A stretch of DNA of 35,127 nt from Reclinomonas americana ATCC 50394 (lineage: Eukaryota), in NCBI GenBank assembly GCA_048213135.1, contig PS015060.1:1-35127 (forward strand). The letters are read 5' to 3'. The translations under genes and the position numbers were made by a program. This document shows positions 86-16,529 of this stretch, in pieces. The notes beneath the pieces were generated by a model, which worked only from the letters and a program-made list of their open reading frames with translations, did no database searches and had not been told where the DNA came from. The stretch's first letter is position 1, and every line of letters starts with the position of its first letter.

Positions 86-3000
86 TAGTGTGTCCCTCGA
101 ACCGTCGCACTTCTTCTCCATTCGCCAGTGACCACATTCGCACTGTCTTGTCCGAACCTCCACTCATTAGTTTTGACCCGACGGTGAATGTGACAGGATG
201 CAGCTCCTTGACCCTTAACCCTTAACCCGGGGGCCCCTACCCTTGACCCTTTGCTCTTGACCGTTGGCTTCCTGGGCCCTTGACCCGTAACCCGAGTGTG
301 GGGCAAAAGTTGTGTCTTGCGCAAGTCGCGAAATGTAAGTAGAGACTCCGATTTGCATGACCAACTGTCGCAGTGCATCTTCACATTACTAGATATAATG
401 TGCTGGCCATCGGGTGTCACTGCCACTGCAAGCACCCAACCTGTGCGGCCTTCCAGTCGGCGCACCTCCTCGCCACTTGCCACCGACCAGACCCGTACAG
501 TCCCGTCATAACTGCCACTCACAATGTGCTGGCCATCGGGTGTCACTGCCACTGCATTCACCTGATTCGTGTGGCCTTCCAGTCGGCGCACCTCCTCGCC
601 ACTTGCCAGCGACCACACTCGTACAGTCTTGTCTCCACTGCCACTCACAATGTGCTGACCATCGGGTGTCACTTCCACAGATTTCACCCCACTCGTACGG
701 CCTTCCAAACAGTTTACCTCTTCGCCACTTGCCAGTGACCACACCCGTACAGTCTTGTCATCACTGCCGCTCACAATGTACTGGCCATCGGGTGTTACAG
801 CCACTGTACATACCCAACCCGTGTGGCCTTCCAGTCGGCGCACCTCCTCGCCACTTGCCACCGACCACACGCGTACAGTCTTGTCCCCACTGCTACTCAC
901 AATGTGCTGGCCATCGGGTGTCACTGCCACTGCACGCACCCTTTCAGTGTGTCCTACAAACGGTCTCCTTGGCCACTTTACATCCGTCACATCGGCCCCT
1001 CTGAAATCCGCCTCCCTCGCATACGCCATGCACACATTCACCCCTCTCATATCCGCTCCCCGCCACACCGTCCTGTGCATCACCGCATCCCTCAAATCCG
1101 CACCCCTCACTCGCACACGCGACAGATCGCGCCCGCTGAACGACACTTGTGCCACACACAACACCGCCGCTGCATTCGCAGCTGCCGTCACCAATCGCTC
1201 CTCATCAATCTCGCGTGACAAGTCAATCACTTCCCACAACCTCGCTTGCAATGCAGGAGATCGTCGCACCACCTCAGCCATCTGCTCCACCAGCGATGGT
1301 CGATCATTCAGAAGTCGCACTCCCAGCACATGCTGCTGCACATCTCGCACCGTCAATCTCTTCTCCTCATCCCACGACTCCCAAGCAAACACATGGCGTG
1401 CCACACAGTGCTCCAGCAACGACAGATGCACAAATCCCCACTGCATCGTCCCATACCGTCGCACAATCGGACAGCACACTCGCACGTGCTGATTCTTGCT
1501 GCCGAGGAACTTGTCAAATGGTCCCTCTTCCACTCGACGCAAGGCGGAAGGCGCACCACCAAAGTCCTCATCCTCCTCTCCACCATCACCTGACCGGCTC
1601 TCCGTCACAGACACACGCACCACATTCCTCTCATGCATCAAGCGTGCCAGGCCCTCACTGAACGCGAGACACGTCATCTCACTGGGCACATGCTCCGCAC
1701 CAAGACGTGTCTGCCTCTCCTGTTCCCTCTCAATCCACTGTCGAATGAATTGGTCAAACACATCACACCGAGTCGGTCGCTGCACACCACTCGCCACCAA
1801 CTGCGGCAACACACGAGCCACCACTGCCAGCAGGAATGGATTCGACACCAGTGCATCCAGTCCATGCACACTATTCAGTGCACGAATGTACTCCTCGGCT
1901 GTCGACCGTCGCACTTCACCGTCATGATCACCACCATCACCCACCAACACCAGTCGCTCAAAGTACTCCTCAATCTGCTCCTTGTTGAACGGCACAATGT
2001 GCCGCTCCATCAGCTGTTGCATGCACAACTGTCCTCGTGCATCCACCGGCGCAAAGTACCGACGATATTGCGTCACTCCGCCCAGTGCCGTCAGTGCGTA
2101 ATCCCCTCGACAGGTGATAATCACCTTCGCATCACGACACACATCCAGTTGATTCTTGACAAACAGATTCACACCACGATACAACTCATCATACCCATCA
2201 AGCAACAACAGCAGTGGTTCCTCCTTCAATCGTCGCACATCCGACTCACTGGATCCCAACTCGGGCGACAGTCGTTCCAATGCCTCCTCCAACAGTCGCT
2301 CATCGGCATTTCGCAGAGCACCAAGAGGAACACGCACAGGCACTCGTCTGCTCTCTCTCGTCTGCCACTGTCGCCACGCTCGCTCAGCCAGCACGGACAT
2401 GGTGGTGGTCTTGCCAGCTCCGCTGTTGCCAAAGAGCACCAGAACACGCTGCGTGGTGTTGGCGTCGGTGAGGAAGGCATCCACTTCTGTCAACAGGTCC
2501 GTCATCTTGTCACGCGACGAGACGTCACGATCACGCGAGCACAGCAGCGGCACATACATCTGCATGTCCTTGCGCACACTTTCGCCGTGCTGGTAGAACG
2601 AGAGCTCACGCACAGCTAGTCGATGCAGTCGCTCCTCAAATGTGCTGATCATGTGCTGGACGTGTCGTGCCTCATGGATACGAGCAGTGAATCGAGCTCG
2701 CTCATCGGCCGTCAAGTGCAATCGGAAGATGATGGCGAGGAAGGCCCCACCGTCACCGAGATACTGCTGCACAGTGGCATCCGTCAGCACGAGGTCCTTG
2801 TGCGCCAACGCCTTTCTCACATCATTCAGCTCGTCCACCGCCTTGCGCTCATCAGCACCGTGAATCAACAGCAGCTTGCGACCGTCATCTTCAACAAAGC
2901 CACCATACAGCATGATGGAAGTAAGTGCCGTCGTGTCGAAACCGTCACACGGAGGGTCGGACGACGGGTCGGCGTCGAAGGCAGCACGCCAGGCCAACAC

Positions 3001-3787
3001 CACCGGCTGCTTCTCCTCGAACAACTTGACTCGAGAGGGGTGGAGTGGAGCATGTCGCTCACGCCATGCCTTCACAGCCGCCATATCCATGCCGGCAGGC
3101 GTGAAAATCGGCACCCACGCCCGCACATTAAAGTCGGGGTGGTCGCGACTGAACTGCGCCAGTGCGCATTGACAGCGCTGACGCACGGCCTCCTCCACCA
3201 CCTCAAAGGCCATGTTGATGCGGTTGAAGTTGATCATGCTGCGCGTGCACACAACCACAATCAGTACAGACTCGCACCGAGAGAAGAACAAGAAGGGAGA
3301 GAAGGCTGTTCATGGCAAGCGAAACAAACCGAGTCACTCGCTCCGAGTTGCTGTGCGAGGACACAAGAGTGAGATGCATGTTTTGCACAGAGAGATGATT
3401 CACAAGCATCCAGCACACACCTTGCATCCGCACTCCCACTCCCTCCACTCGACTGCGGCGCCACGCCAAGTGTCAGACGGACAACAAGGTGCGTGGATGA
3501 GTTGATGCCGAGTCCACGCAGTGGTGCCGTACTCATGAGCTCCAAGTCATACGGTACCGGCTTCTCCACCCCCACAATCTCCATCTGCCCATCTCCACTC
3601 TTCTCACGCAGCAAGCGTGTGGCCTCGCGCAGCAAGTCCGCGAGAGTGGACATGGCCGACATGCCCTCCACCACCACCGACAGCGATGAATCATGCGCCG
3701 CACTCACGTGCACAGAGAACTGTGCACAAACAAGGCCAGTGAGCGCAGGGAGGAGGGAAAAGAGAACAAACAAACACACACCGACAT
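86..3787 (-). CDS. NLR/STAND protein: ubiquitin-like, HEPN-like, NACHT, pentapeptide repeat, WD40 repeats (3' end incomplete or disrupted)
   Basis: Manual minus-strand translation. Predicted ATG at 3787, intron 3781-3720, Ubl-like exon 3719-3421 (FSVHV..LSVVV..STLADLL..PLRGLGINSSTHLVVRL), possible micro-exon near 3350-3328, then a stop-free exon from 3238. Motifs: NFNRI 3231-3217, FDTTAL 2940-2923, RKALAH 2817-2800, Walker A GNSGAGKT 2430-2407, Walker B LLLLLDGYDEL 2214-2182, KVIITCR 2127-2107, NPFLL 1842-1828, winged-helix FVHLSLLEH ~1434-1408, AAANA then pentapeptides (GRDLS/GADLR/GADMR/EADFR/GADVT) ~1140-975, WD40 repeats ~957-394, and a further WD fragment ~200-86 in another frame. The + strand frame-1 ORFs in the track are its antisense shadow. 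Confidence 0.9.
206..293. repeat. Degenerate telomere-like heptamer array (TTAACCC/TTGACCC; TTAAGGG-type on the minus strand)
   Basis: ccttgaccc-ttaaccc-ttaaccc...taccc-ttgaccc-tttgctc-ttgaccg...ttgaccc-gtaaccc, with 7-nt periodicity. Confidence 0.6.
394..957 (-). repeat. 126-nt coding tandem repeat (~4.5 copies of a 42-aa WD40 unit)
   Basis: Unit GH(T)xxVxAVAVTPDGQHIVSGSxDKTVRVWS(V/L)ASGEEVRRLE recurs at 126-nt spacing with high DNA identity. Confidence 0.95.
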
Positions 3788-4076
3788 TGTGTGCGTGTGT
3801 TCTTTGTTGTCAGTCACGTTTCACACAAATTCCTGTCAATGAAGTTGTCAGAGATGGTGGGTTTCTTTACTTCTCCNNNNNNNNNNNNNNNNNNNNNNNN
3901 NNNNNNNNNNNNNNNNNNNNNNNNNNNNNNNNNNNNNNNNNNNNNNNNNNNNNNNNNNNNNNNNNNNNNNNNNNNNNNNNNNNNNNNNNNNNNNNNNNNN
4001 NNNNNNNNNNNNNNNNNNNNNNNNNNNNNNNNNNNNNNNNNNNNNTCTCTCTCTCCCTCTCCTCTCCCTCCCTCAC

Positions 4077-6713
4077 ATGGACTCCGCACGCCCGCTCACC
4101 ACGCTCAACCAATACGCCGGCCACACACACCCTCCATCTCCATCCGCACCCTCTCCGTCTCCCCACCCACCTCCCCTTCCTCCTCCTCCTCATCCCCACA
4201 TCGCCAACTCGTCGCCACTGGTTGCGCCAATGGCGACATTCGCCTCTTCGACGCCCACCAATGCACACTACTGCTCCACACAACTCCCTTCGCCACAGTC
4301 TGCATCACACGCCTGAATTTCTCCCCCACCGATCCTTCCATGCTCTTTGCGGGCACGGAGGCAGGCTGCCTGGTCGCGCGTCTCCTTGTCAGCTGCAGCA
4401 GCTCGCCACCGTGCTGTGACGTGGTATGGTCGTCGAGTCAGCAGCACACAGGCGGAGTGCGTGCGTTGCAGGCGTCGCGTGACAATCGCCTGCTGCTCTC
4501 CGGCTCCAGCGATCACACGGTGCGCGTGTGGAACGTGGAGAGTGGCGATTGTGTGGCCACGTGGCTCGGGCACGAGGATTGGGTGTATGGAGTGGCGCTG
4601 TCGTTGGATGCGCAATGGGGGTTGAGTGTGTCGGATGATCGTACGGTGCGCGTGTGGAGTGTGGAGACGAGCGCGGAGATTGCGGTGCATAGGTGTGAGA
4701 AGGCGGAGAGGGCGTGCTCGTTGGCGTTGTCGCCGAATGGAGATGATGTGGCGGTGGGTGGCGGGAGTGGGACGGTGGAGGTGGTGTCGTTGAGGGCGCT
4801 CGTGGCTGGTGGTGGTGGGGAGGTTGAGGTGCGGTCGTTCTTTTCGGGAACGCGAGGGCATGTGGTGGCGCTGTCGTTTAATGCCAGTGGCTCGCATTTG
4901 TTGGTGTCGTGCAAGTGTTGCGTGGGGGGAAAGGGGAAGGGGGAAGGGGGGAGAGAGGGAGGGGTGGGGAGGAGAGGAAGGCAGGGAGGAAGGGGGGAAG
5001 GACAAGAGAGAGAGAGAGAGAGAGAGAAAGAGCTGCGACTATGAATGGCGATGCAGACGCAGTGGATGAGAATGGTTGGAGAGAGACTGAGCAAAGAAGA
5101 AGTGCGATGAGAGAGTGGATACAAGTGAGAAGGCGGAGAGGCAAGAGCTTCAACTCTGAATGGCTGTAGACAAAAGTGGATGAGAATGGTTGGAGAGAGA
5201 CTGAGCAAAGAAGAAGTGTGATGAGAGACAGAGAGAGAGAGACAGAGAGAGACAGAGACAGAGAGAGACAGAGAGAGACAGAGAGAGACAGAGACAGAGA
5301 GAGAGAGAGAGACAGACAGACAGAGAGAGNNNNNNNNNNNNNNNNNNNNNNNNNNNNNNNNNNNNNNNNNNNNNNNNNNNNNNNNNNNNNNNNNNNNNNN
5401 NNNNNNNNNNNNNNNNNNNNNNNNNNNNNNNNNNNNNNNNNNNNNNNNNNNNNNNNNNNNNNNNNNNNNNNNNNNNNNNNNNNNNNNNNNNNNNNNNNNN
5501 NNNNNNNNNNNNNNNNNNNNNNNNNNNNNNNNNNNNNNNNNNNNNNNNNNNNNNNNNNNNNNNNNNNNNNNNNNNNNNNNNNNNNNNNNNNNNNNNNNNN
5601 NNNNNNNNNNNNNNNNNNNNNNNNNNNNNNNNNNNNNNNNNNNNNNNNNNNNNNNNNNNNNNNNNNNNNNNNNNNNNNNNNNNNNNNNNNNNNNNNNNNN
5701 NNNNNNNNNNNNNNNNNNNNNNNNNNNNNNNNNNNNNNNNNNNNNNNNNNNNNNNNNNNNNNNNNNNNNNNNNNNNNNNNNNNNNNNNNNNNNNNNNNNN
5801 NNNNNNNNNNNNNNNNNNNNNNNNNNNNNNNNNNNNNNNNNNNNNNNNNNNNNNNNNNNNNNNNNNNNNNNNNNNNNNNNNNNNNNNNNNNNNNNNNNNN
5901 NNNNNNNNNNNNNNNNNNNNNNNNNNNNNNNNNNNNNNNNNNNNNNNNNNNNNNNNNNNNNNNNNNNNNNNNNNNNNNNNNNNNNNNNNNNNNNNNNNNN
6001 NNNNNNNNNNNNNNNNNNNNNNNNNNNNNNNNNNNNNNNNNNNNNNNNNNNNNNNNNNNNNNNNNNNNNNNNNNNNNNNNNNNNNNNNNNNNNNNNNNNN
6101 NNNNNNNNNNNNNNNNNNNNNNNNNNNNNNNNNNNNNNNNNNNNNNNNNNNNNNNNNNNNNNNNNNNNNNNNNNNNNNNNNNNNNNNNNNNNNNGAGAGA
6201 GAGAGAGAGAGAGAGCGCGGCGACAACGAATGGCGATAGACATAGTGGATGGAAAAGAACTGAGCAAAAAGAAGTGCGATGAGAGAGAGAGAGAGAGAGT
6301 GAGGGAGAGAGAGGAGGGGGAGAGTGGATACAGGTGGAGAAGGAGTGAGGCAAGAGCTGCGACTGTGATGACGATGCAGACAAAGTGGATGAAAGGCTGG
6401 AGAGAGACTGAGCAAAGAAGAAGTGCGATGAGAGAGTGAGGGAGAGAGAGGAAGAGAGGGAGAGAGAGGATGCAAGTGGGGAGGTGGAGAGGAAAGAGCT
6501 GCGACTGTGAATGGCGATGCAGACAAAAGTGACTATATCTCGCTCTCAACTCTCACAATTCACGCGTGTCTCTGCGCCCATTTTCTGTCGTGCTCCTTCA
6601 GCCATCTCCACTGTAGTTTCTCTCTCCGGAAAAGATGCAGCCACTTCCGTACAGTCTTCTGCCGTCTCCTCTCGCTCAGCTTCCACTCTGCTCTCTCACA
6701 TCATTCTCTCTTC

Positions 6714-6745
<32 letters not shown>

Positions 6746-7543
6746 GCGTCTCTCTCTCCCTCCCTTCTCTCCCTTGCTCTTCCCGGCCAGCTTTTCTCTT
6801 CTGCCCACTCGTTCACTTGCTCACTTCCATGGCTCTCTCTCTCTCTCTCTCGCTCTTTCTCTCTTCCTCTCTCTCTCTCATCGCACGTCCCTTTGCTCAG
6901 TCTCTCTCCAGCCTTTCCATCCACTTTTGTCTGCATCGCCATTCACAGTCGCAGGCCTTGCCTCACTCCCTCTCCACTTGCTCCCTCACTCTCTCTCATC
7001 GCACGTCCCTTTGCTCAGTTCTTCACTCCAGCCTTTCCCGTAATCTTGAAGAATGAGTCCGACACCTGATAATGTCTCTTTCTCCCTTTCCCTTGAGCAG
7101 TCGACGTGTCCGTCTGGCACGTGGCTACGCTGACGTGCGTGGCGGTGCTTCGAGGCCACACCAATTTCGTGTACGGCTCACGGTTTTTGTACGACGGGCA
7201 CATTGCCACGGCGGCGTGGGATTCGACGGCGTTTCTGTGGTCTTCGGGTGAGGAGGCGTCAACAATTGCGTTTCGTGCCGCTCTCTTTTTCTCTCATCTT
7301 GTGCCACCGACAGGACCGTGGGGTCATCTGCAAATGATGGAGGAGGAGCTGTTGAGCACGAGGCGCGCCATGGGTGCGCTGCACGAGATCGCTGAGGGTG
7401 GGATTAGGGCAGAGGAGGAACAAGGGCGAGTTGATGCGCCGGTGTGGTATCCGGAGGGGGAACCGTTGCCGCTGTTGGTGTTGAGGTGTTTTATTGCGGA
7501 GGAGGCGAGCATGTGGTGCTTTAGGTTGAGTTTTGGGGAGTGA
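4077..7543 (+). CDS. WD40-repeat protein with a C-terminal helical extension
   Basis: Exon ~4077-4913 has WD motifs (LVATGCANGDIRLFD, HTGGVRAL..LLLSGSSDHTVRVWN, GHEDWVYGV..SVSDDRTVRVWS). A long intron spans a gap. The exon from ~7101 gives VSVWHV..LRGHTNFVYG..ATAAWDSTAFLW through to TGA at 7543. ATG 4077 joins the main frame only through a 2-nt shift in a (CA)n run at 4122-4130. Confidence 0.8.
5029..7038. repeat. Intronic ~90-100 bp repeat in direct and inverted copies
   Basis: Unit agagctgcgactgtgaatggcgatgcagacaaaagtggatga..ggagagagactgagcaaagaagaagtgcgatgagag at ~5029, ~5170, ~6215, ~6350 and ~6495 (partial); reverse-complement copies at ~6873-6968 and ~6991-7038. Confidence 0.85.
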
Positions 7544-7873: not shown

Positions 7874-10800
7874 ATGCATTGTGAAGGCCGAAGGTGGTCG
7901 GCTGTCCGTCCCCGCTTCTGTGCCGGAGGTGTTCACGGAGACCGCGTCCGCCTCGGTGAGGGGAACGCGTCGCTGTTGTCCGTTGGCGTCGCTCATCATC
8001 AGTCGCCATTGGGCGCACAGGTCTCCTTTGTCAGTGTTGTCAAGCCACAGCTAACGTTTCGATCGGCCTCTTCCGCTGCCGACAGTGGTCACATTCCTCG
8101 TGGATCCGTGCTGGAGCAGGTGCTTGCTCTGCTGCGCTTGCCCGTGTCGACAGTGTTACCGGCGCAGTCGTGGTCGGGTGCCTCTGTACACGTATGTGCC
8201 GGCGGCAGGGCCATGGTGAGTGTGTGAAATTTAAAAATACGCACTTGATTGAGCTCTCCACATCGCGCTCATTTTCCACACACGTGCAGTCCCGTGTGCT
8301 GCACGTGACTGTGGACAGTGAGGAGCTCGAGATGGCGGCGCAGCGACAGGACTACTCCGAAAGCGCACGACTCTCCGTCAATGTGCAGTTGTTGCAAGTG
8401 ATGTTGGCCCTCAGCAGCCTCATTCTGGTCGATATGACTGATCTGGAAGACATTCGCGAGTGGCCCGAGGTCGATCTTCTGCGGTGGCTTGAGTTGCGTG
8501 CCATTCCTTCCTGGTGCGCGCTATAAGATTGCCTGACGCTGATGCCTGCACGTGTTGGTACGTTTTCTCAGCGGATTTGCGCTTGCCGCGTCTCGCAATC
8601 ACCAGTGCACGCCCGTCGATTCTCGAGTCCTTGAGCGCGGCCGTATGACGGCCACACGGCCGACGGTTGTGTTTGTTGTGCCGACGAATACTGGCGTCAA
8701 CAGCGCCTATGCTAGCGCGAGTGAATGGTGCGCGACTTCAGTCTACCCGCCCTCGCTTTATGTTGCTGTTCCTTTTGACAGTGAATCGTTTGTCTATTCG
8801 TAGGCTGCAAGTGCAGGTGGCCACCACCGTGCTTCCGTCGTTGGCAACGGAGAACACGGATCTCGCTTGTCTGCTACATCGTGTTGGAGTCGGTAAGTTG
8901 GCAGTCAGCGGTGTCATGGCACTTAGAAAATGCATGTTGTGTGCGCGTGCGTGTGTTTGTGTGTGTGTGATTCATTGGACATGATGCAGAGCTCGAGGCA
9001 CCGCTGGACCCGCTGCCGACCTTCCTCTCAGTCTATGGCGGAGCCGTGAGGTTTCTCGACTCTCCGCCCTCGTCGAACATTGCTATGGTTAGTGCAGCTG
9101 TGCTGCTTACTCACATACGTGTTCTCAGAACGACTGACATTCTTGTACACATGGGTAGCGGCAACGCGAACTCCGGCGTGAGCTGACGGCTCTTTTTGAG
9201 ACGCACTTGACGCCTCTGCAGCTTCCTATGTTCGTTGCCGATGACGACGAGCAGCCAGTTGTTGCAGTGCCACTTGGACCTGAAGGTGGGCCTGTTGCAT
9301 TGTTCGCAGTGCTTGACACCACCCTTTCGCGATCGTGCTCACCTCCTCCACCGCGCGCAGCCGTGCCGTCGTTCCTCGTCACCATTACCTCGCAATTGGA
9401 CAACATAGGCATTGTGCCCGGTGTGCGCATGTCGGACACTGACATGGACGGGAAGCCGGAGGAGAGCGGTCACCTACGCACTGTGGTTCACCACCCAGTG
9501 GACCTGAGTGAGCGGCTGCTTGTCTTGCTCAAGGCGCACGCTCTGTGCGAAGTGCGCCTCGCACAACGCGCAGTCGGTGCTCACGACAAGCGATGGATTC
9601 AACAGCTTCGGCAGCAACTCGCGAGCACCTACAGCAGCCTGGCCAACACACTGCCTCCGTACTCGCCGCAACATTTGGCTTGCCTCGAGGCAGCCGTGTC
9701 ACTCTGCAGCCACTGGAAGGCGAAGCTCGACTGCGGTCTTGCGCTCATGCGGTTGGAGAAGCACCAAGAAGCTCATCATTTCTTGTATGAGGCGCTGCGG
9801 CACCGTCCCGGCGATGCGGTACTGCGAGAGGCCTACGAGCGCTCGATCAACTCCGACGTCGACTGCTGCCGGGACCCATGTGAGCATTCGTCACAGAGTC
9901 GCGCGGCTGATGTCTCGCGCGAGATGGAGAGCCCTGAGGAGGCCGCGAAGCTCTTTGTCCAGGTTCTGCACGCCCTCTTTGGCGACGACGACGACGAGAC
10001 ACAGCGACTGCCACTCCACGTCATCATGTTGTACCTCAACCAAGTGGTAGCTGCCGACCGCCTTAACGATTTCGCGCAATATCTGCTCGGCATGCTTCAT
10101 GCGGCGGCCAACCGTGCTTGTGAAGCTCTCATGTGCTTCGAGGCCGCCGTCGAGATCCATCAGAAACACCGCCACTGGTTCAAGGCTCGCAAAATCGACC
10201 TGCCTGTCGACGAGAGCTACTACTTCGCTGCCGCCGACGCGTGCCGTTCCTTTGGCGATACGTACAAGGCCGCGTGGTGGTTGGAACGGCTTTGTCGCGA
10301 TGTGCCGACATCGCTGCACTTTCGCCACTTGTGGCACGAAGCCCTGCTGGCGTCACATCAGTACGGGCAGGCGGTGGAGACCATCGAGGAGGCGATGCGC
10401 AGCAATCCTTGCGACGTGGCCCTGTACATGCCGTACGTGCGTGCTCTTTTCCACAATGGTCGGTATGACGAATGCCGCCACCTGCTGAATAAGTGGCTCG
10501 AGCACGGCGGAGCTTGCAACCTACTGGCGAGTGACTGGGCTCTGCTGGCGCAACTGGAGGCTGCTGCTTCCAGGCCGGTGGAAGCCGCAGCATGCTACAG
10601 CATGGCAGCACGCATCGACACATCGAGTCGCGAGTACGGCCAGTTGTACAACGAGCAACTGCGCGTTGTGGCGTCCACTCTCACAAGTGGAGATGCTTGC
10701 GCTGCTGCTGCAGGCGCGCTTGTAACGCGAGTCATGGCACCATGGGTGCATGAGCAGGAGCGGCAGTGGCACGCTGCGCTGCATGCCGTGTTGGAGCCGG

Positions 10801-13166
10801 AGGTCAACGAGCAGCTGCATGGCCCGGTACAGTTCACGCCGCCAAGTGAGTGGGGCGAGAGCGGGCAGCCCGAGTCGTCGCCGCTGTGCGGTCTCGATTA
10901 CCCAGTCGTCGACCCACGTCGCGACACCGCGGAGGCCATCACGGCTGCGCAGCTCGAGGCCAATCGGCGAGATCATGACTTCCGCAATCGACACCCCGAC
11001 ACCTACGACGACGTCAAGTATTACTGGCACCTGTTCTCTGCCACTGGCGATGCGGCTGTACGCTTCAACGATGGTGTGGTCATGCAACTGGCGCGTGACG
11101 GCTTCCACTCGGATCTGTACCTCCGACAGCGACTGCGCGTTTTCAGCACTCTTATTGGCGACGTGCAAGCTGGCCGCGTGCCAGAGAGCTCACAAGTGTT
11201 ACAAGCACTGTCCCGTGAGGCTGTGTCTGTGCGCCAGTCGCTCCTACTCGAGACATTGCGACAGTCGATTGACAACAACCAAGTGCACCTTGGTCAATGG
11301 ACGAACTGCATTCTGTCGCACATTGACGCGTTGGGAGTCGATCAAGAGTTGTCGATCGCTGCCAGTTGGGTTGGACACTGCGTTTACGTGTCATTCCACC
11401 GAGTCGGCGACGAGGTGTTTGTGCGCGTCGATAACCGTGGAGAGGGCCCTCGTCCGCGGGACGTACGCTTGCGCGTGCGAGCGCCTGCAGCTGCTGGAGC
11501 TCCCGATCGAGTGCAGTCCTACGTTGTGGCGCGCTTGCGACGCATCGACATTCAACCAGGAGGCGTTTCTCGACCCTTGCTGGAGACGTACCTTGGCAAC
11601 GTTCGTCGAGCTTGTGATCTCGAAAACGAGACCGGCTCTCCACTGGTGTACGACTTGACTGTCGGTGCCCACGTGGCGCTCTTCGTCGCCCCCAGTCAGG
11701 CCGCTGTGATTGCCGAGCTGCAGTACGCGGCGATGCAATACCAGACCAAGGCCGGCAACTGCGCGCGCAAGAGCCAAGTCGTTGGAACTCGCCGACGCAC
11801 TCGATTTGTTGCCTTGTACAAGCTCATGAAGCAGATGGAGCGGAGTGTGGCCGTGGAAGTGCTCTCGCGGTCGACAACCTTTGATCCACAGCTGGTGCTG
11901 GCCGCGGAGGCTGATCGACCGCAGCCCATCCGTCCCATGATCCGTGCCGCCCTTCCGCAGCGTGTGCTTCACTTGGAGCACCTGACGAGCGCCGAGTTCC
12001 TCCACTTTCGTGGACCGGCGGCTGGGTCACCGCTGCCTCCGCCGCCTTTCATGGCGCTGCAGAGCATCAGTCGACTTGAAATGAGGGATGAAGACGCTGA
12101 CAGTGATGTGCCGTTCCGTTCGGCTACACCGGATCTGTATCAGCTGTTCAAGTACTACTGGCATCTGCTGTCATCGAATGGGCGCACCATGTTCAGCAAC
12201 GGCCAGGAACTCCGTCATGGTTACTTCTTCAGCACCCTGTTCCTGCAGGAGCGCCTCGACCATTTGACGGCACTGCTACACGATTTCGACACCAACGCCG
12301 CTACATCATCGTTTGCTGTTATTACTGCCGAGACACAGCCGGCCACCCTCCGACGCGCTCTCGCTGTGGAGATCGCTGCTGTCACCCGCTCGCTCGCGCT
12401 GTCTGTGATGATTGACGCCGGCGACGTCGATGGAGAAGCGTGGGCTCGAGAGGTGCGGGAGCACGTCCGCAGACTCGACGTGGATGAGGAGTTGTCCCTC
12501 GCGTGTGCCTGGCGGCTCCGCTGCGTGTATGTGACTATTCATCGCATCGACGGTGACCGGCTGGTCATTCGCGTGGATAATCGTGGAAGCACTCCAGTGC
12601 CCCACCTCAACGACGGCCGTCGCTGTTTCCCGTACATTGTCGGTGTTGTGTCGCTGCGCGCCTTTGTGAATGAGGCACGTTACAAACAGTACCTCCGAGG
12701 TATTCGTCGCGCTCGCTCTCTTTCAGAGGCCGAGGGTGCCGCACTAATCTACGACACTTCTCGCGCGGCTTTCGGTCCAGCTTTGGATCAGCGTGTAGTT
12801 TTGCAACAGAGGCAATATCCGGCACTGGCATATCAGCGCACGCCGACAGGCGTCATCAAGAGCCACTGTGTGGGCACCCACATCCGCATGCAACGCGTGC
12901 AGCTGGAGGCGGATCGTCGCATCTTTGCTGGTGCGGCACCACGAGTTAACATTCCGGCGGAAGTAGCCGGCAGTGAGTGGCTTCGTGCGACGTACCGCAA
13001 GCGGGCTGTCGACATGACGTACCGTGAGATCAAGGCCGCCGATGTCGTCCTCACGTTTTCCCGCATGCTGCAGCGTGGTGTGCGACCGAGCTCACTGGTT
13101 CCGGAGTTACCGTTGGGAGGTCTACCGGTGGTGCCAGAGCCTGCTGCTCGTCCAGTGCCTGGTTGA
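7874..13166 (+). CDS. Large TPR-containing protein with two tandem putative cysteine-peptidase-like domains (start uncertain)
   Basis: Several short 5' exons with GT-AG boundaries (~8291-8512, ~8572-8727, ~8804-8891, ~8989-9087), then a ~4.0-kb stop-free exon 9159-13166. TPR-like helices ~9700-10660 (GLALMRLEKHQEAHHFLYEALRHRPGD, YLLGMLH..EALMCFEAAVEI, QYGQAVETIEEAMRSNP). Internal duplication ~10990-11870 and ~12125-13070 sharing KYYWHL, W..xCVYV, RVDNRG, Y.A..YQ. Confidence 0.8.

Positions 13167-13333: not shown

Positions 13334-16529
<3,196 letters not shown>

What the first reader, a model, noticed from the sequence alone, without database searches (positions are those of the whole stretch)
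86..3787. Hidden NLR-like receptor: Ubl-HEPN-NACHT-pentapeptide-WD40
Seen: a >950-codon stop-free minus-strand exon, missed by the ORF track, with intact NACHT Walker A (GNSGAGKT), Walker B (LLLLLDGYDEL), sensor-1 (KVIITCR), NPFLL and winged-helix motifs, followed by pentapeptide and WD40 repeats. Established: effector-NACHT-repeat is the NLR/STAND layout used in animal, fungal (HNWD, HET-E) and bacterial immunity. Inference: this is a protist immune or self/non-self receptor, and I do not recall this five-module combination being described.
Basis: partly seen in the sequence, partly recalled or inferred. Interest (0 to 1): 0.85.

Follow-up and report, generated by a model that had tools for sequence, protein, structure and literature searches.

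The report
NLR-like NACHT-WD40 gene in a eukaryote
This is a real gene for an NLR-type "sense and switch" protein (NACHT ATPase, pentapeptide spacer, WD40 sensor) in a draft, intron-bearing eukaryote genome; the core layout is already known from fungi and bacteria, and only its unmatched front end, possibly a ubiquitin-like plus RNase-like head, is unusual and still unproven.

Summary
A minus-strand frame is stop-free from 3309 to the window start (1103 codons). It carries the quoted NACHT motifs, and Pfam hits for NACHT, pentapeptide and WD40 all exceed their curated cut-offs.

The NACHT-pentapeptide-WD40 core is not new. It aligns collinearly, at 25-31% identity, with NLRs of Mortierellomycotina and Pezizales fungi, two EukProt proteins, and dozens of Mycoavidus (fungal endosymbiont) genes.

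The two N-terminal modules are not established:
- **"HEPN":** a sub-threshold Pfam hit, a language-model lead and one Rx4H motif among seven such motifs.
- **"Ubl":** language-model leads, a low-confidence beta-beta-alpha-beta-beta model, and coding-type codon usage in an upstream exon flanked by GT-AG introns.

The 257 residues before the NACHT module have no homologue among 1.84 billion representative proteins. Pfam found no HEPN or ubiquitin domain in the N-termini of 74 bacterial relatives, and phmmer found no N-terminal match in 124 fetched proteins.

No RNA data or genome were available. The 5' splice junction is ambiguous, and the 3' WD40 array breaks off at about 396.

Verdict: a real NLR-like gene and a new variant of a known kind, of moderate interest.

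The parts
3782..3787 (-). Putative first coding exon (ATG TCG), directly followed by a GT donor
   Evidence: First ATG after an in-frame stop. Read through without splicing, this frame hits a stop after 27 codons. Inferred, no RNA support.
3720..3781 (-). Putative intron 1 (62 nt; GTGTGTG donor, pyrimidine tract, CACAG acceptor)
   Evidence: Sequence read. Same style as an independent intron of the nitroreductase-like gene in this window (GTGAGT donor, CT tract, CACAG acceptor).
3421..3719 (-). Exon encoding the ubiquitin-like candidate (about 99 aa)
   Evidence: Codon log-likelihood is +0.279 per codon in frame, against -0.60 and -0.46 in the other two frames. GC1/2/3 is 0.66/0.49/0.69, close to the main ORF's 0.67/0.44/0.62. 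In the Atlas, every named cluster listed is of the ubiquitin/Rad60-SLD family at 0.87-0.90, but the top three (0.90-0.91) are unnamed. The AF2 model has pLDDT 52 and strand-strand-helix-strand-strand order. No Pfam hit and no Foldseek match at E<=0.001.
3239..3420 (-). Putative intron 2 (182 nt in one model; the junction is ambiguous)
   Evidence: Codon log-likelihood is negative in all three frames. Eighteen single GT-AG joins keep the frame open, using acceptors at 3306, 3271 or 3239. A (GT)3 run at 3420-3415 offers a donor in every phase.
388..3238 (-). Main exon: N-terminal module, NACHT NOD, pentapeptide repeats, WD40 units (950 codons from the ATG at 3237)
   Evidence: Stop-free frame. 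Cross-validated coding log-likelihood +0.21 and +0.25 per codon.
2713..2955 (-). HEPN-like candidate region (aa about 95-175); the Pfam stretch is aa 128-156 (2770-2856) and RKALAH is at 2800-2817
   Evidence: Pfam HEPN_Swt1 E 0.017-0.043, 14.5-15.8 bits, below the cut-off of 27.5. Atlas feature hits HEPN_Swt1 0.81 and HEPN_DZIP3 0.76, leads only. Rx4-6H occurs 7 times in the 257 aa, so the motif alone is weak.
2095..2448 (-). NACHT NTPase domain (Walker A 2407-2430, Walker B 2182-2214, sensor-1 Arg 2107-2127)
   Evidence: Pfam PF05729 at 39.4 bits against 26.7. These residues are invariant in alignment A1 with three relatives.
1198..2094 (-). Post-NACHT helical/winged-helix part of the NOD (NPFLL 1828-1842; F-x-H-x-S motif 1408-1434)
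   Evidence: Collinear alignments with P0031, P0064, P0093 and P0110. Invariant columns in A1.
973..1146 (-). Pentapeptide-repeat segment (about 11 units)
   Evidence: Pfam PF00805 at 24.6-29.4 bits against 20.2. The PDB profile search finds only pentapeptide-repeat proteins here.
388..969 (-). WD40 units: four 42-aa units plus half a unit
   Evidence: PF00400 at 173.5 bits. TRF period 126, 4.3 copies. Units are 76-86% identical in protein and 79-87% in DNA.
207..396 (-). Unrelated spacer that interrupts the WD40 array
   Evidence: Unique within the window, with no pyrimidine tract before any usable acceptor. The whole tail 67-387 has negative coding scores in all three frames.
87..179 (-). 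One further WD40 blade in a different frame, followed by (TCC)n/(CT)n and the window edge
   Evidence: tblastn 59-71% identity to the upstream units. Frame translations.

Best explanation
The locus is a genuine nuclear gene of an intron-bearing eukaryote. It encodes a STAND/NLR-type protein of the NACHT-pentapeptide-WD40 family that is otherwise seen in Mortierellomycotina and Pezizales fungi, a few other eukaryotes, and bacteria such as Mycoavidus.

Shown:
- An intact-looking NACHT module with Walker A, Walker B, sensor-1 Arg and winged-helix His.
- A pentapeptide beta-helix segment.
- An array of very similar WD40 units.

Inferred mechanism, by analogy with characterised NLRs:
1. The WD40 propeller binds a ligand.
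2. Binding releases the NACHT switch, which takes up nucleotide and oligomerises.
3. Oligomerisation brings the N-terminal heads together and activates them.

The head is lineage-specific. The first ~175 of the 257 residues before the NACHT module most likely form a divergent HEPN-type RNase that would act once dimerised (about 50%). An upstream exon most likely adds a ubiquitin-like beta-grasp domain at the very N-terminus. I put that exon being coding and part of this gene at about 65%, and its fold being ubiquitin-like at about 55%.

The probable outcome is RNA cleavage leading to growth arrest or death of the cell on infection or non-self contact. None of the functional steps was tested.
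For: Core:
- Stop-free frame of 1103 codons.
- Pfam NACHT, pentapeptide and WD40 all above cut-off.
- Motifs at the stated coordinates, invariant in alignment A1.
- Collinear alignments of 25-28% identity over 688-820 columns with P0031, P0064 and P0110.
- The A1 profile found 30 proteins at E<=1e-5. Eleven are named fungal proteins, and 14 list NACHT, pentapeptide and propeller families together.
- 126 confirmed stretches in prokaryote genomes.
- In a 27-row tree the query falls in a mostly eukaryotic group (13 named eukaryote rows, 5 unnamed) with SH-aLRT 90, apart from Nostoc and Sorangium.

Eukaryotic setting:
- Eight N gaps and many (CT)n/(GA)n runs.
- A nitroreductase-like gene split by an intron with a GTGAGT donor and CACAG acceptor.
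- No prokaryote genome is held for the window.

Head:
- Pfam HEPN_Swt1 E 0.017-0.043, covering RKALAH.
- Atlas leads to HEPN_Swt1 and HEPN_DZIP3.
- The Ubl exon has coding-type codon usage in exactly one frame, and the intron next to it does not.
- Atlas named hits for that exon are all of the ubiquitin family.
- Beta-beta-alpha-beta-beta order in the model.
- GT-AG introns of the local style.
Against: Head identity:
- The HEPN hit is below Pfam's cut-off, and Rx4-6H occurs seven times in the 257 residues.
- phmmer of those 257 residues against 1.84 billion representatives gave 0 hits, so no alignment could be built.
- The AF2 models are poor (pLDDT 40 and 52). The low-confidence model of the 257 residues contains strands, which an all-helical HEPN should not.
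- Foldseek gave no match at E<=0.001 for either model.
- The Ubl exon has no Pfam or NCBIfam hit, and its top three Atlas clusters are unnamed.

Gene model:
- The in-frame join is not discriminating. Eighteen GT-AG joins work, and a (GT)3 run gives every phase.
- A 6-nt first coding exon is unusual.

3' end:
- The WD40 array breaks at about 396, the tail 67-387 scores as non-coding, and no stop codon is seen. The gene may therefore be truncated, decayed or misassembled.

Placement:
- The query sits on a long branch (2.0 changes per column) in an unresolved fork, and its letter make-up departs from the alignment's.
Confidence: 0.6

Rival explanations
1. The NLR core is the same, but the head is neither HEPN nor ubiquitin-like. 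It is an orphan lineage-specific domain, perhaps an adaptor, a pore-former or simply the NACHT N-terminal helical extension. The upstream 'Ubl exon' would then be a 5' leader, a separate small gene or non-coding.
For: - 0 hits for the 257 residues in 1.84 billion representatives.
- All HEPN evidence is sub-threshold.
- Rx4-6H occurs seven times.
- Poor models and no fold matches.
- A second, unrelated sub-threshold Pfam hit (Kdo_hydroxy, E 0.0007-0.002, aa 188-271) has a better E-value than the HEPN hit.
- N-terminal domains in this family vary freely: ARM_5 in 22 and TPR_8 in 18 of 74 relatives, and PRTase-CE in 1.
Against: - The only Pfam and Atlas leads for residues 95-175 agree on the HEPN clan.
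- The upstream exon has main-ORF-like codon usage in one frame only.
- In its unspliced frame it ends 24 nt before the ATG at 3237, too close for two separate eukaryotic genes.
Confidence: 0.3
2. The locus is a decaying or truncated NLR pseudogene. The 5' part is still open, but the sensor array is broken.
For: - The WD40 array stops in mid-unit at about 396. About 190 nt of unique sequence follows, then a blade in another frame.
- The tail scores as non-coding.
- Fewer than the seven blades a propeller needs are seen in frame.
Against: - 950 codons are open with intact catalytic motifs and coding-type codon usage.
- The break lies next to microsatellites, at the window edge, in an assembly with eight gaps in 35 kb.
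- Near-identical 126-nt units are a classic place for assembly errors.
Confidence: 0.18
3. It is a Crinkler/CR-type effector rather than a receptor: a ubiquitin-like header followed by a nuclease-like toxin and a regulatory P-loop NTPase.
For: CR proteins are described as a Ubl header plus C-terminal toxin modules that often include a P-loop NTPase with a nuclease (Amaro et al. 2017, PMC5289972, passages). The order here, Ubl-like then nuclease-like then NTPase, resembles that superficially.
Against: - No Pfam hit to the Crinkler header or any ubiquitin-clan family, even at E up to 10.
- The NTPase is a NACHT with a full NOD.
- It is followed by pentapeptide and WD40 repeats exactly as in NLR relatives. 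That is a receptor layout.
Confidence: 0.04
4. The gene belongs to a bacterial contaminant or endosymbiont, not to the eukaryote.
For: The family is hugely expanded in Mycoavidus MAG records and is also present in a Coxiellaceae MAG.
Against: - Identity to all bacterial loci is only 25-31%.
- The gene lies on the same sequence as (CT)n-rich, gap-ridden DNA with spliceosomal-type introns.
- Its own 5' end shows GT-AG intron signals.
- The tree places it with eukaryotic sequences.
Confidence: 0.03

Closest known systems
NACHT-pentapeptide-WD40 NLRs of Mortierellomycotina and Pezizales fungi and of Mycoavidus cysteinexigens (P0096-P0109, P0031, P0064; loci L001-L076)
   Same: Collinear NACHT, helical/winged-helix part, AANA...pentapeptide segment and WD40 array. 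Walker A/B, sensor-1, NPFLL and F-x-H-x-S are invariant.
   Different: Identity is only 25-31%, on a long unresolved branch. The N-terminal module is unrelated: Pfam on 74 bacterial N-termini finds ARM_5, TPR or PRTase-CE where it finds anything, and phmmer finds no N-terminal match in 124 fetched proteins. The pentapeptide segment is 10 residues shorter than in the two fungal-type sequences of A1 that include it.
Bacterial NLR-related NACHT proteins (bNACHT; Kibby et al., bioRxiv 10.1101/2022.07.19.500537)
   Same: Tripartite effector-NACHT-repeat logic. That paper lists HEPN RNase effectors, pentapeptide repeats and beta-propellers as NACHT partners, and proposes repeated bacteria-to-eukaryote transfers (passages).
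   Different: This gene is eukaryotic and contains introns. No anti-phage role applies. PADLOC gave no bNACHT-type hit.
HET-E / HNWD NACHT-WD40 family of Podospora anserina
   Same: A NACHT followed by WD40 units that are very alike, with differences concentrated in a few columns (cols 4, 5, 7, 8, 23, 25). The high internal conservation and concerted evolution of such repeats are described in Dyrka et al. 2014 (PMC4986451, passages).
   Different: The units here are 76-86% identical, mostly below the 85% criterion used there. The head is not a HET domain. A pentapeptide segment lies between NOD and WD40. Polymorphism and diversifying selection could not be tested from one sequence.
HEPN-NACHT proteins of animals (CXorf38 and DZIP3/hRUL138 HEPN families) and bacterial HEPN-STAND proteins (Anantharaman et al. 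2013, PMC3710099)
   Same: An N-terminal HEPN-type RNase candidate joined to a NACHT/STAND NTPase, read as an RNA-degrading immune or suicide output (passages).
   Different: The HEPN assignment here is sub-threshold. The partner domains in animals are DEATH, CARD, LRR and ankyrin, not pentapeptide-WD40.
Sacsin (Ubl plus HEPN in one protein) and Crinkler/CR effectors (Ubl header plus toxin modules)
   Same: A ubiquitin-like domain at the N-terminus of a protein that also carries a HEPN or nuclease-type module (passages).
   Different: There is no detectable sequence relationship. Sacsin's HEPN is C-terminal and not coupled to a NACHT. CR proteins lack the NOD-repeat receptor part.

Membership tests
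NACHT (STAND P-loop NTPase) | Profile match above Pfam's gathering score | tested here: met
   PF05729 at 39.4 bits against 26.7, E 6.9e-10, aa 264-381.
NACHT (STAND P-loop NTPase) | Walker A GxxxxGK[ST], Walker B hhhhD followed by acidic residues, sensor-1 Arg | tested here: met
   GNSGAGKT, LLLLLDGYDEL and KVIITCR. G31, G34, G36, K37, D108, D111, E112 and R138 are invariant in A1.
NACHT (STAND P-loop NTPase) | Winged-helix part with a conserved His (F-x-H-x-S) | tested here: met
   FVHLSLLEH at aa 602-610. F363, H365 and S367 are invariant in A1. That this His contacts nucleotide is recalled from NLR structures and was not tested.
NACHT (STAND P-loop NTPase) | Sequence similarity to a solved NACHT structure | tested here: not met
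   phmmer and the A1 profile against PDB sequences matched no NACHT or NLR chain: all but one match are pentapeptide-repeat proteins or designs, and the other is a 'phosphate-loop protein' at E 0.0039. This shows distance from solved NLRs and is not evidence against NACHT.
NLR-like tripartite architecture (effector - NOD - repeats) | N-terminal module, central NOD and C-terminal superstructure-forming repeats in one polypeptide | tested here: met
   One open frame holds a 257-aa head, the NACHT NOD, and pentapeptide and WD40 repeats.
NLR-like tripartite architecture (effector - NOD - repeats) | Immune or non-self recognition function | not testable with these tools
   No expression, genetic or biochemical data. 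No RNA run listed.
Pentapeptide repeat | Profile match above the gathering score | tested here: met
   PF00805 at 24.6 and 29.4 bits against 20.2. PDB pentapeptide proteins are matched by A1.
WD40 beta-propeller | WD40 repeats above the gathering score | tested here: met
   PF00400 at 173.5 bits, 4 stretches.
WD40 beta-propeller | Enough blades (usually seven or more) to close a propeller | tested here: inconclusive
   4.5 units in frame plus one more out of frame. The array is broken at about 396 and the window ends.
HEPN RNase superfamily | Profile match above the gathering score | tested here: not met
   HEPN_Swt1 at 14.5-15.8 bits against 27.5. No NCBIfam hit.
HEPN RNase superfamily | Rx4-6H catalytic motif | tested here: inconclusive
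   RKALAH at aa 141-146 lies inside the Pfam stretch, but seven Rx4-6H matches occur in the 257 aa.
HEPN RNase superfamily | All-alpha four-helix-bundle fold | tested here: inconclusive
   The AF2 single-sequence model has pLDDT 40 and mixes helices and strands. Foldseek gave no match at E<=0.001.
Ubiquitin-like beta-grasp | Profile match to a ubiquitin-clan family | tested here: not met
   No ubiquitin-clan Pfam hit at E up to 10 and no NCBIfam hit.
Ubiquitin-like beta-grasp | Beta-beta-alpha-beta-beta fold | tested here: inconclusive
   The model shows E2-7, E12-19, H23-41, E46-56, E76-84, but at pLDDT 52. Foldseek found no ubiquitin-like match. Atlas named clusters are of the ubiquitin family at 0.87-0.90, leads only.
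Fungal HNWD-type 'highly internally conserved' repeats (Dyrka et al. 2014 criterion) | At least 85% identity between repeat units over at least 100 aa | tested here: not met
   Pairwise unit identity is 76-86%, and only one of six pairs reaches 85%.
Crinkler/CR effector | CR-type Ubl header domain | tested here: not met
   No Pfam hit of the Crinkler or ubiquitin clan for 3423-3719.

The most novel reading that the evidence does not exclude
A eukaryote outside fungi and animals carries an NLR of the fungal/Mycoavidus-type NACHT-pentapeptide-WD40 clade. Its output module would be a ubiquitin-like domain followed by a HEPN RNase. That head was not seen by Pfam in the N-termini of 74 bacterial relatives or by phmmer in 124 fetched proteins, and it has no sequence homologue among 1.84 billion representative proteins. 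If true, it would be an independently assembled, RNA-targeting NLR in a protist, and an example of effector swapping on a conserved sensor-switch chassis across kingdoms.
Probability: 0.3. Interest if true: 0.6.

Novelty: new variant of a known kind. Interest (0 to 1): 0.4.

Why it matters
NLR-type proteins are central to innate immunity and allorecognition in animals, plants, fungi and bacteria, but are little described in other eukaryotes.

This gene shows that the NACHT-pentapeptide-WD40 chassis, so far seen mainly in Mortierella-type fungi and their endosymbionts, also occurs in a very divergent form in another intron-bearing eukaryote. There it carries a head that has no detectable relatives.

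If that head is an RNase, the gene would be a compact, testable model of oligomerisation-triggered RNA cleavage in a eukaryotic NLR. If not, it marks an orphan effector domain worth solving.

The core finding itself is ordinary for the field. The layout is catalogued, and horizontal spread of NACHT genes has already been proposed.

Tried and rejected
- **Whole-genome search:** no genome is held for this window, so paralogue counts and organism identity could not be obtained.
- **RNA evidence:** The look-up of sequencing runs listed no run ('none was listed').
- **Rfam and tRNA scans of the window:** nothing.
- **Earlier findings of this scan:** none for this genome or sequence.
- **phmmer of the 257-aa head against 1.84 billion representatives:** 0 hits.
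- **PDB sequence search of the head:** only chance-level rows, E >= 0.4.
- **AF2 single-sequence models:** pLDDT 40 for the head and 52 for the Ubl exon. Foldseek against the PDB found 0 matches at E<=0.001 for both, with top rows of topoisomerase, XRCC4 and S6 permutants. These are meaningless at such confidence.
- **PADLOC:** only a P-loop-level hit, mad8 at E 8.6e-4.
- **NCBIfam on the head and the Ubl exon:** nothing.
- **Intron in the WD40 break (384..207):** a frame-compatible GT-AG pair exists (worked out by hand), but it lacks a pyrimidine tract and would leave an incomplete blade. Rejected as unlikely.
- **70-nt intron 3420..3351 plus 39-nt intron 3277..3239:** not frame-compatible (worked out).
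- **Telomere-like reading of the GGGTTAAGGG run at about 215-235:** dropped. It is a short local repeat of GGGT(C/T)AAGG within unique sequence.
- **tblastn of each module against the window:** no paralogue of the head or the NOD.
- **Organism identification:** the window's protein is not in the searched collections. No hit exceeded 31% identity in the NOD, and no remaining tool carries eukaryote taxonomy.

Full report
**What is in the sequence.**

On the minus strand, one frame is free of stop codons from 3309 down to base 1. That is 1103 codons, and the frame runs off the window start, which is an (AG)33 microsatellite. The frame is closed upstream by TGA at 3312-3310, and the first ATG is at 3237.

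Counting residues from that ATG, the quoted motifs are all present:

| Motif | Residues | Window |
|---|---|---|
| Walker A GNSGAGKT | 270-277 | 2407-2430 |
| Walker B LLLLLDGYDEL | 342-352 | 2182-2214 |
| Sensor-1 KVIITCR | 371-377 | 2107-2127 |
| NPFLL | 466-470 | 1828-1842 |
| FVHLSLLEH | 602-610 | 1408-1434 |

The Pfam results are:
- NACHT at E 6.9e-10, 39.4 bits against a gathering score of 26.7, aa 264-381.
- Pentapeptide at 24.6-29.4 bits against 20.2.
- WD40 at 173.5 bits against 27.

Tandem Repeats Finder sees a 126-nt unit in 4.3 copies at 397-941, with 82% matches.

**Setting.**

The window is draft eukaryotic DNA:
- It has eight runs of N and dozens of (CT)n/(GA)n tracts.
- No prokaryote genome is held for it.
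- A nitroreductase-like gene is split into exons near 16050 and 14100-13500. Its intron has a GTGAGT donor and a CT-rich tract ending in CACAG.

I could not name the organism. The window's proteins are not in the searched collections, and Rfam and tRNA scans found nothing.

**The core belongs to a known family.**

A first search with the whole protein was swamped by WD40 hits, but it turned up full-length relatives. Pairwise alignments are collinear from just before Walker A through the pentapeptide segment into the WD40 units:
- 25% over 744 columns with P0031.
- 23% over 688 columns with a Kalaharituber protein, P0064.
- 27% over the NOD with a Mortierella protein, P0093.
- 28% over 820 columns with a EukProt entry, P0110.

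I built a profile of the NOD-pentapeptide part (A1) and searched it among longer proteins. It found 30 proteins at E<=1e-5:
- 11 are named proteins of Mortierellomycotina or Pezizales.
- 2 are EukProt entries.
- 1 is a Cymbomonas NACHT-ankyrin protein.
- 2 are Sorangium proteins.
- The rest are unnamed.

Fourteen of the 30 list NACHT, pentapeptide and propeller families together in the printed Pfam column, which is truncated.

The same profile, scanned over one genome per prokaryote species, matched 231 stretches. Of these, 126 were confirmed and 76 loci were kept. Seventy-three are Mycoavidus cysteinexigens MAG records, and one each is from a Coxiellaceae MAG, an Anammoxibacter MAG and a gammaproteobacterial MAG. 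Identities to the query are 25-31%.

I then built a quick maximum-likelihood tree of 27 NOD regions. Twelve of the 39 profile-positive proteins were left out because they did not span the NACHT part: P0005, P0007, P0094, P0106, P0112, P0116, P0117, P0119, P0120, P0121, P0124 and P0125. The tree puts the query on a long branch of 2.0 changes per column. That branch sits in an unresolved fork of a mostly eukaryotic group (13 named eukaryote rows, 5 unnamed; SH-aLRT 90) with the two fungal groups, the EukProt pair and Cymbomonas. Nostoc and Sorangium fall outside it. The tool warns that long rows are placed unreliably and that the query's letter make-up is unusual.

The literature already lists these parts:
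- Kibby et al. name HEPN RNases as effectors, and pentapeptide repeats and beta-propellers as sensor repeats, of NACHT proteins. They also propose several bacteria-to-eukaryote transfers, including a HET-E/D-like clade shared with endosymbionts of fungi (passages).
- Wojciechowski et al. note NACHT-WD40 proteins shared by Mortierella-type fungi and Mycoavidus (passages).
- Earlier notes of this scan reached the same view of the pentapeptide segment as a standard part. My searches agree with them.

**The WD40 units.**

Four 42-residue units and half a fifth are in frame. They are 76-86% identical in protein and 79-87% in DNA. The differences fall in 13 of 42 columns, notably columns 4, 5, 7 and 8 after the GH(T), and columns 23 and 25. 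This recalls the internally conserved, concertedly evolving repeats of fungal NLRs (Dyrka et al. 2014, passages), although only one of six unit pairs reaches the 85% criterion used there.

The array then breaks in mid-unit at about 396. About 190 nt of sequence that is unique in the window follows. One more blade then lies in a different frame at 87-179, followed by microsatellites and the window edge. The tail scores as non-coding in all frames. A GT-AG pair (384..207) would keep the frame, but it lacks a pyrimidine tract and would leave a defective blade. I therefore read the break as either an assembly fault in near-identical repeats or a real truncation, and I cannot tell which.

**The head (residues 1-257).**

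This is the part that would make the gene unusual, and it is the weakest part.
- phmmer against 1.84 billion representative proteins found nothing.
- Pfam gives only HEPN_Swt1 at E 0.017-0.043 (14.5-15.8 bits against a cut-off of 27.5), over aa 128-156, which contain RKALAH.
- Pfam also gives an unrelated sub-threshold hit to Kdo_hydroxy over aa 188-271.
- The language-model Atlas puts HEPN_Swt1 (0.81) and HEPN_DZIP3 (0.76) clusters first. By the tool's own statistics these scores are leads only.
- Rx4-6H occurs seven times in these 257 residues, so the motif alone proves little.
- The single-sequence AF2 model is unusable (pLDDT 40), and Foldseek found nothing.

From memory only, and not from any call, the spacing of an FD..L segment about 39 residues before the R-x4-H resembles DZIP3-type HEPN domains. 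I put the HEPN reading at about one half.

**The upstream exon.**

Upstream of the ATG at 3237, the same strand shows ATG TCG at 3787-3782 followed by GTGTGTG. A pyrimidine tract ending in CACAG at 3720 comes next, and then an open stretch 3719-3421 that ends at another GTGTGTG.

Evidence that this stretch is coding:
- Its codon usage matches the main ORF in exactly one frame: +0.279 log2 units per codon, against -0.60 and -0.46 in the other frames. The main ORF scores +0.21 and +0.25 in cross-validation.
- Its GC1/2/3 profile also matches.
- The 182 nt that follow are negative in all frames.

Evidence on its fold:
- Its product has no Pfam or NCBIfam hit.
- Every named Atlas cluster listed is of the ubiquitin or Rad60-SLD family (0.87-0.90). 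The three best clusters, at 0.90-0.91, are unnamed.
- The AF2 model has the order strand-strand-helix-strand-strand, but at pLDDT 52.
- Foldseek found nothing useful.

Joining 3421 to 3238 keeps the frame. However, 18 different GT-AG joins do so, because a (GT)3 run supplies a donor in every phase and three acceptors (3306, 3271, 3239) are usable. Frame compatibility is therefore weak evidence, and the exact junction is open. Unspliced, the exon's frame ends only 24 nt before the ATG at 3237, which argues against two separate genes. No RNA run was listed.

**How unusual is the head?**

Among relatives I found no counterpart:
- phmmer of the head and of the Ubl exon against the 124 fetched proteins gave best E-values of 0.23 and 0.83.
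- I scanned the N-terminal regions of 74 of the 76 bacterial loci with Pfam. L073 and L074 were dropped because their N-termini are 6 and 38 residues. ARM_5 appears in 22, TPR_8 in 18 with other TPR families in fewer, and PRTase-CE in 1. HEPN and ubiquitin families appear in none.
- The EukProt relatives have an Ala-rich helical N-terminus.

The idea of a HEPN on a NACHT is in print for animals (CXorf38 and DZIP3 families) and for bacterial STANDs. Ubl plus HEPN occurs in sacsin (Anantharaman et al. 2013, passages). Ubl headers on toxin modules define Crinkler/CR proteins (Amaro et al. 2017, passages).

A full-text search for NACHT, HEPN and ubiquitin-like together returned 7 papers. For three of them (PMC3710099, PMC8195603, PMC7159879) I read passages found with other search terms, and for the other four only the listing. 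None describes this combination in what I saw. Supplementary tables, which may list architectures, were closed.

**Mechanism.**

Shown: an intact-looking NACHT switch between a variable head and a repeat sensor.

Inferred from characterised NLRs and HEPN enzymes:
1. Ligand binding by the WD40 propeller releases the NOD.
2. The NOD oligomerises on nucleotide binding.
3. Clustered heads become active. If they are HEPN domains, they would pair to form RNase sites.
4. RNA is cut, and the cell arrests or dies.

The Ubl could act as an autoinhibitory or docking element. That is speculation.

**Verdict.**

This is a real NLR-like gene. The NACHT-pentapeptide-WD40 core is a divergent new member of a catalogued family. 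The proposed Ubl-HEPN head is plausible but unproven and has no detectable relatives. The gene model is open at both ends. I rate it a new variant of a known kind, with interest 0.4.

Noticed in passing
window 4235-4909 and 6974-7315 (+ strand): A separate WD40-repeat gene lies head-to-head with the NLR gene, across the N gap at 3877-4045. Its exons are 30-37% identical to the NLR's WD40 units. Whether the two genes share a promoter region or a function is unknown.
   Followed up: partly
window 9159-13166 (+ strand): A 1335-codon open frame whose only Pfam hits are TPR. By eye it contains an internal duplication: two similar segments each hold a KYYWHL... stretch and a later VDNRG... stretch.
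   Followed up: no
window 13497-14231 and about 15930-16080 (- strand): A nitroreductase-like gene (by eye) split by an intron of about 2 kb, full of (CT)n and holding an N gap. The boundaries visible are a GTGAGT donor and a CACAG acceptor after a CT tract. I used it as the local example of intron style.
   Followed up: partly
window 207-396: The spacer that interrupts the WD40 array contains short GGGT(C/T)AAGG repeats and is unique in the window. Its origin (insertion, misassembly or decay) is unexplained.
   Followed up: partly
loci L001-L076: The NACHT-pentapeptide-WD40 family is hugely expanded in Mycoavidus cysteinexigens MAG records (73 of the 76 loci kept, many per assembly). Single copies occur in a Coxiellaceae MAG (L058), an Anammoxibacter MAG (L059) and a gammaproteobacterial MAG (L074). 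L058's 339-aa N-terminus has no Pfam family.
   Followed up: partly
window 2425-2676 (aa 188-271 of the NLR): A sub-threshold Pfam hit to Kdo_hydroxy (E 0.0007-0.002, 17.8-19.4 bits against a cut-off of 25) spans the helical linker and Walker A. It is probably spurious, but it has a better E-value than the HEPN hit.
   Followed up: no
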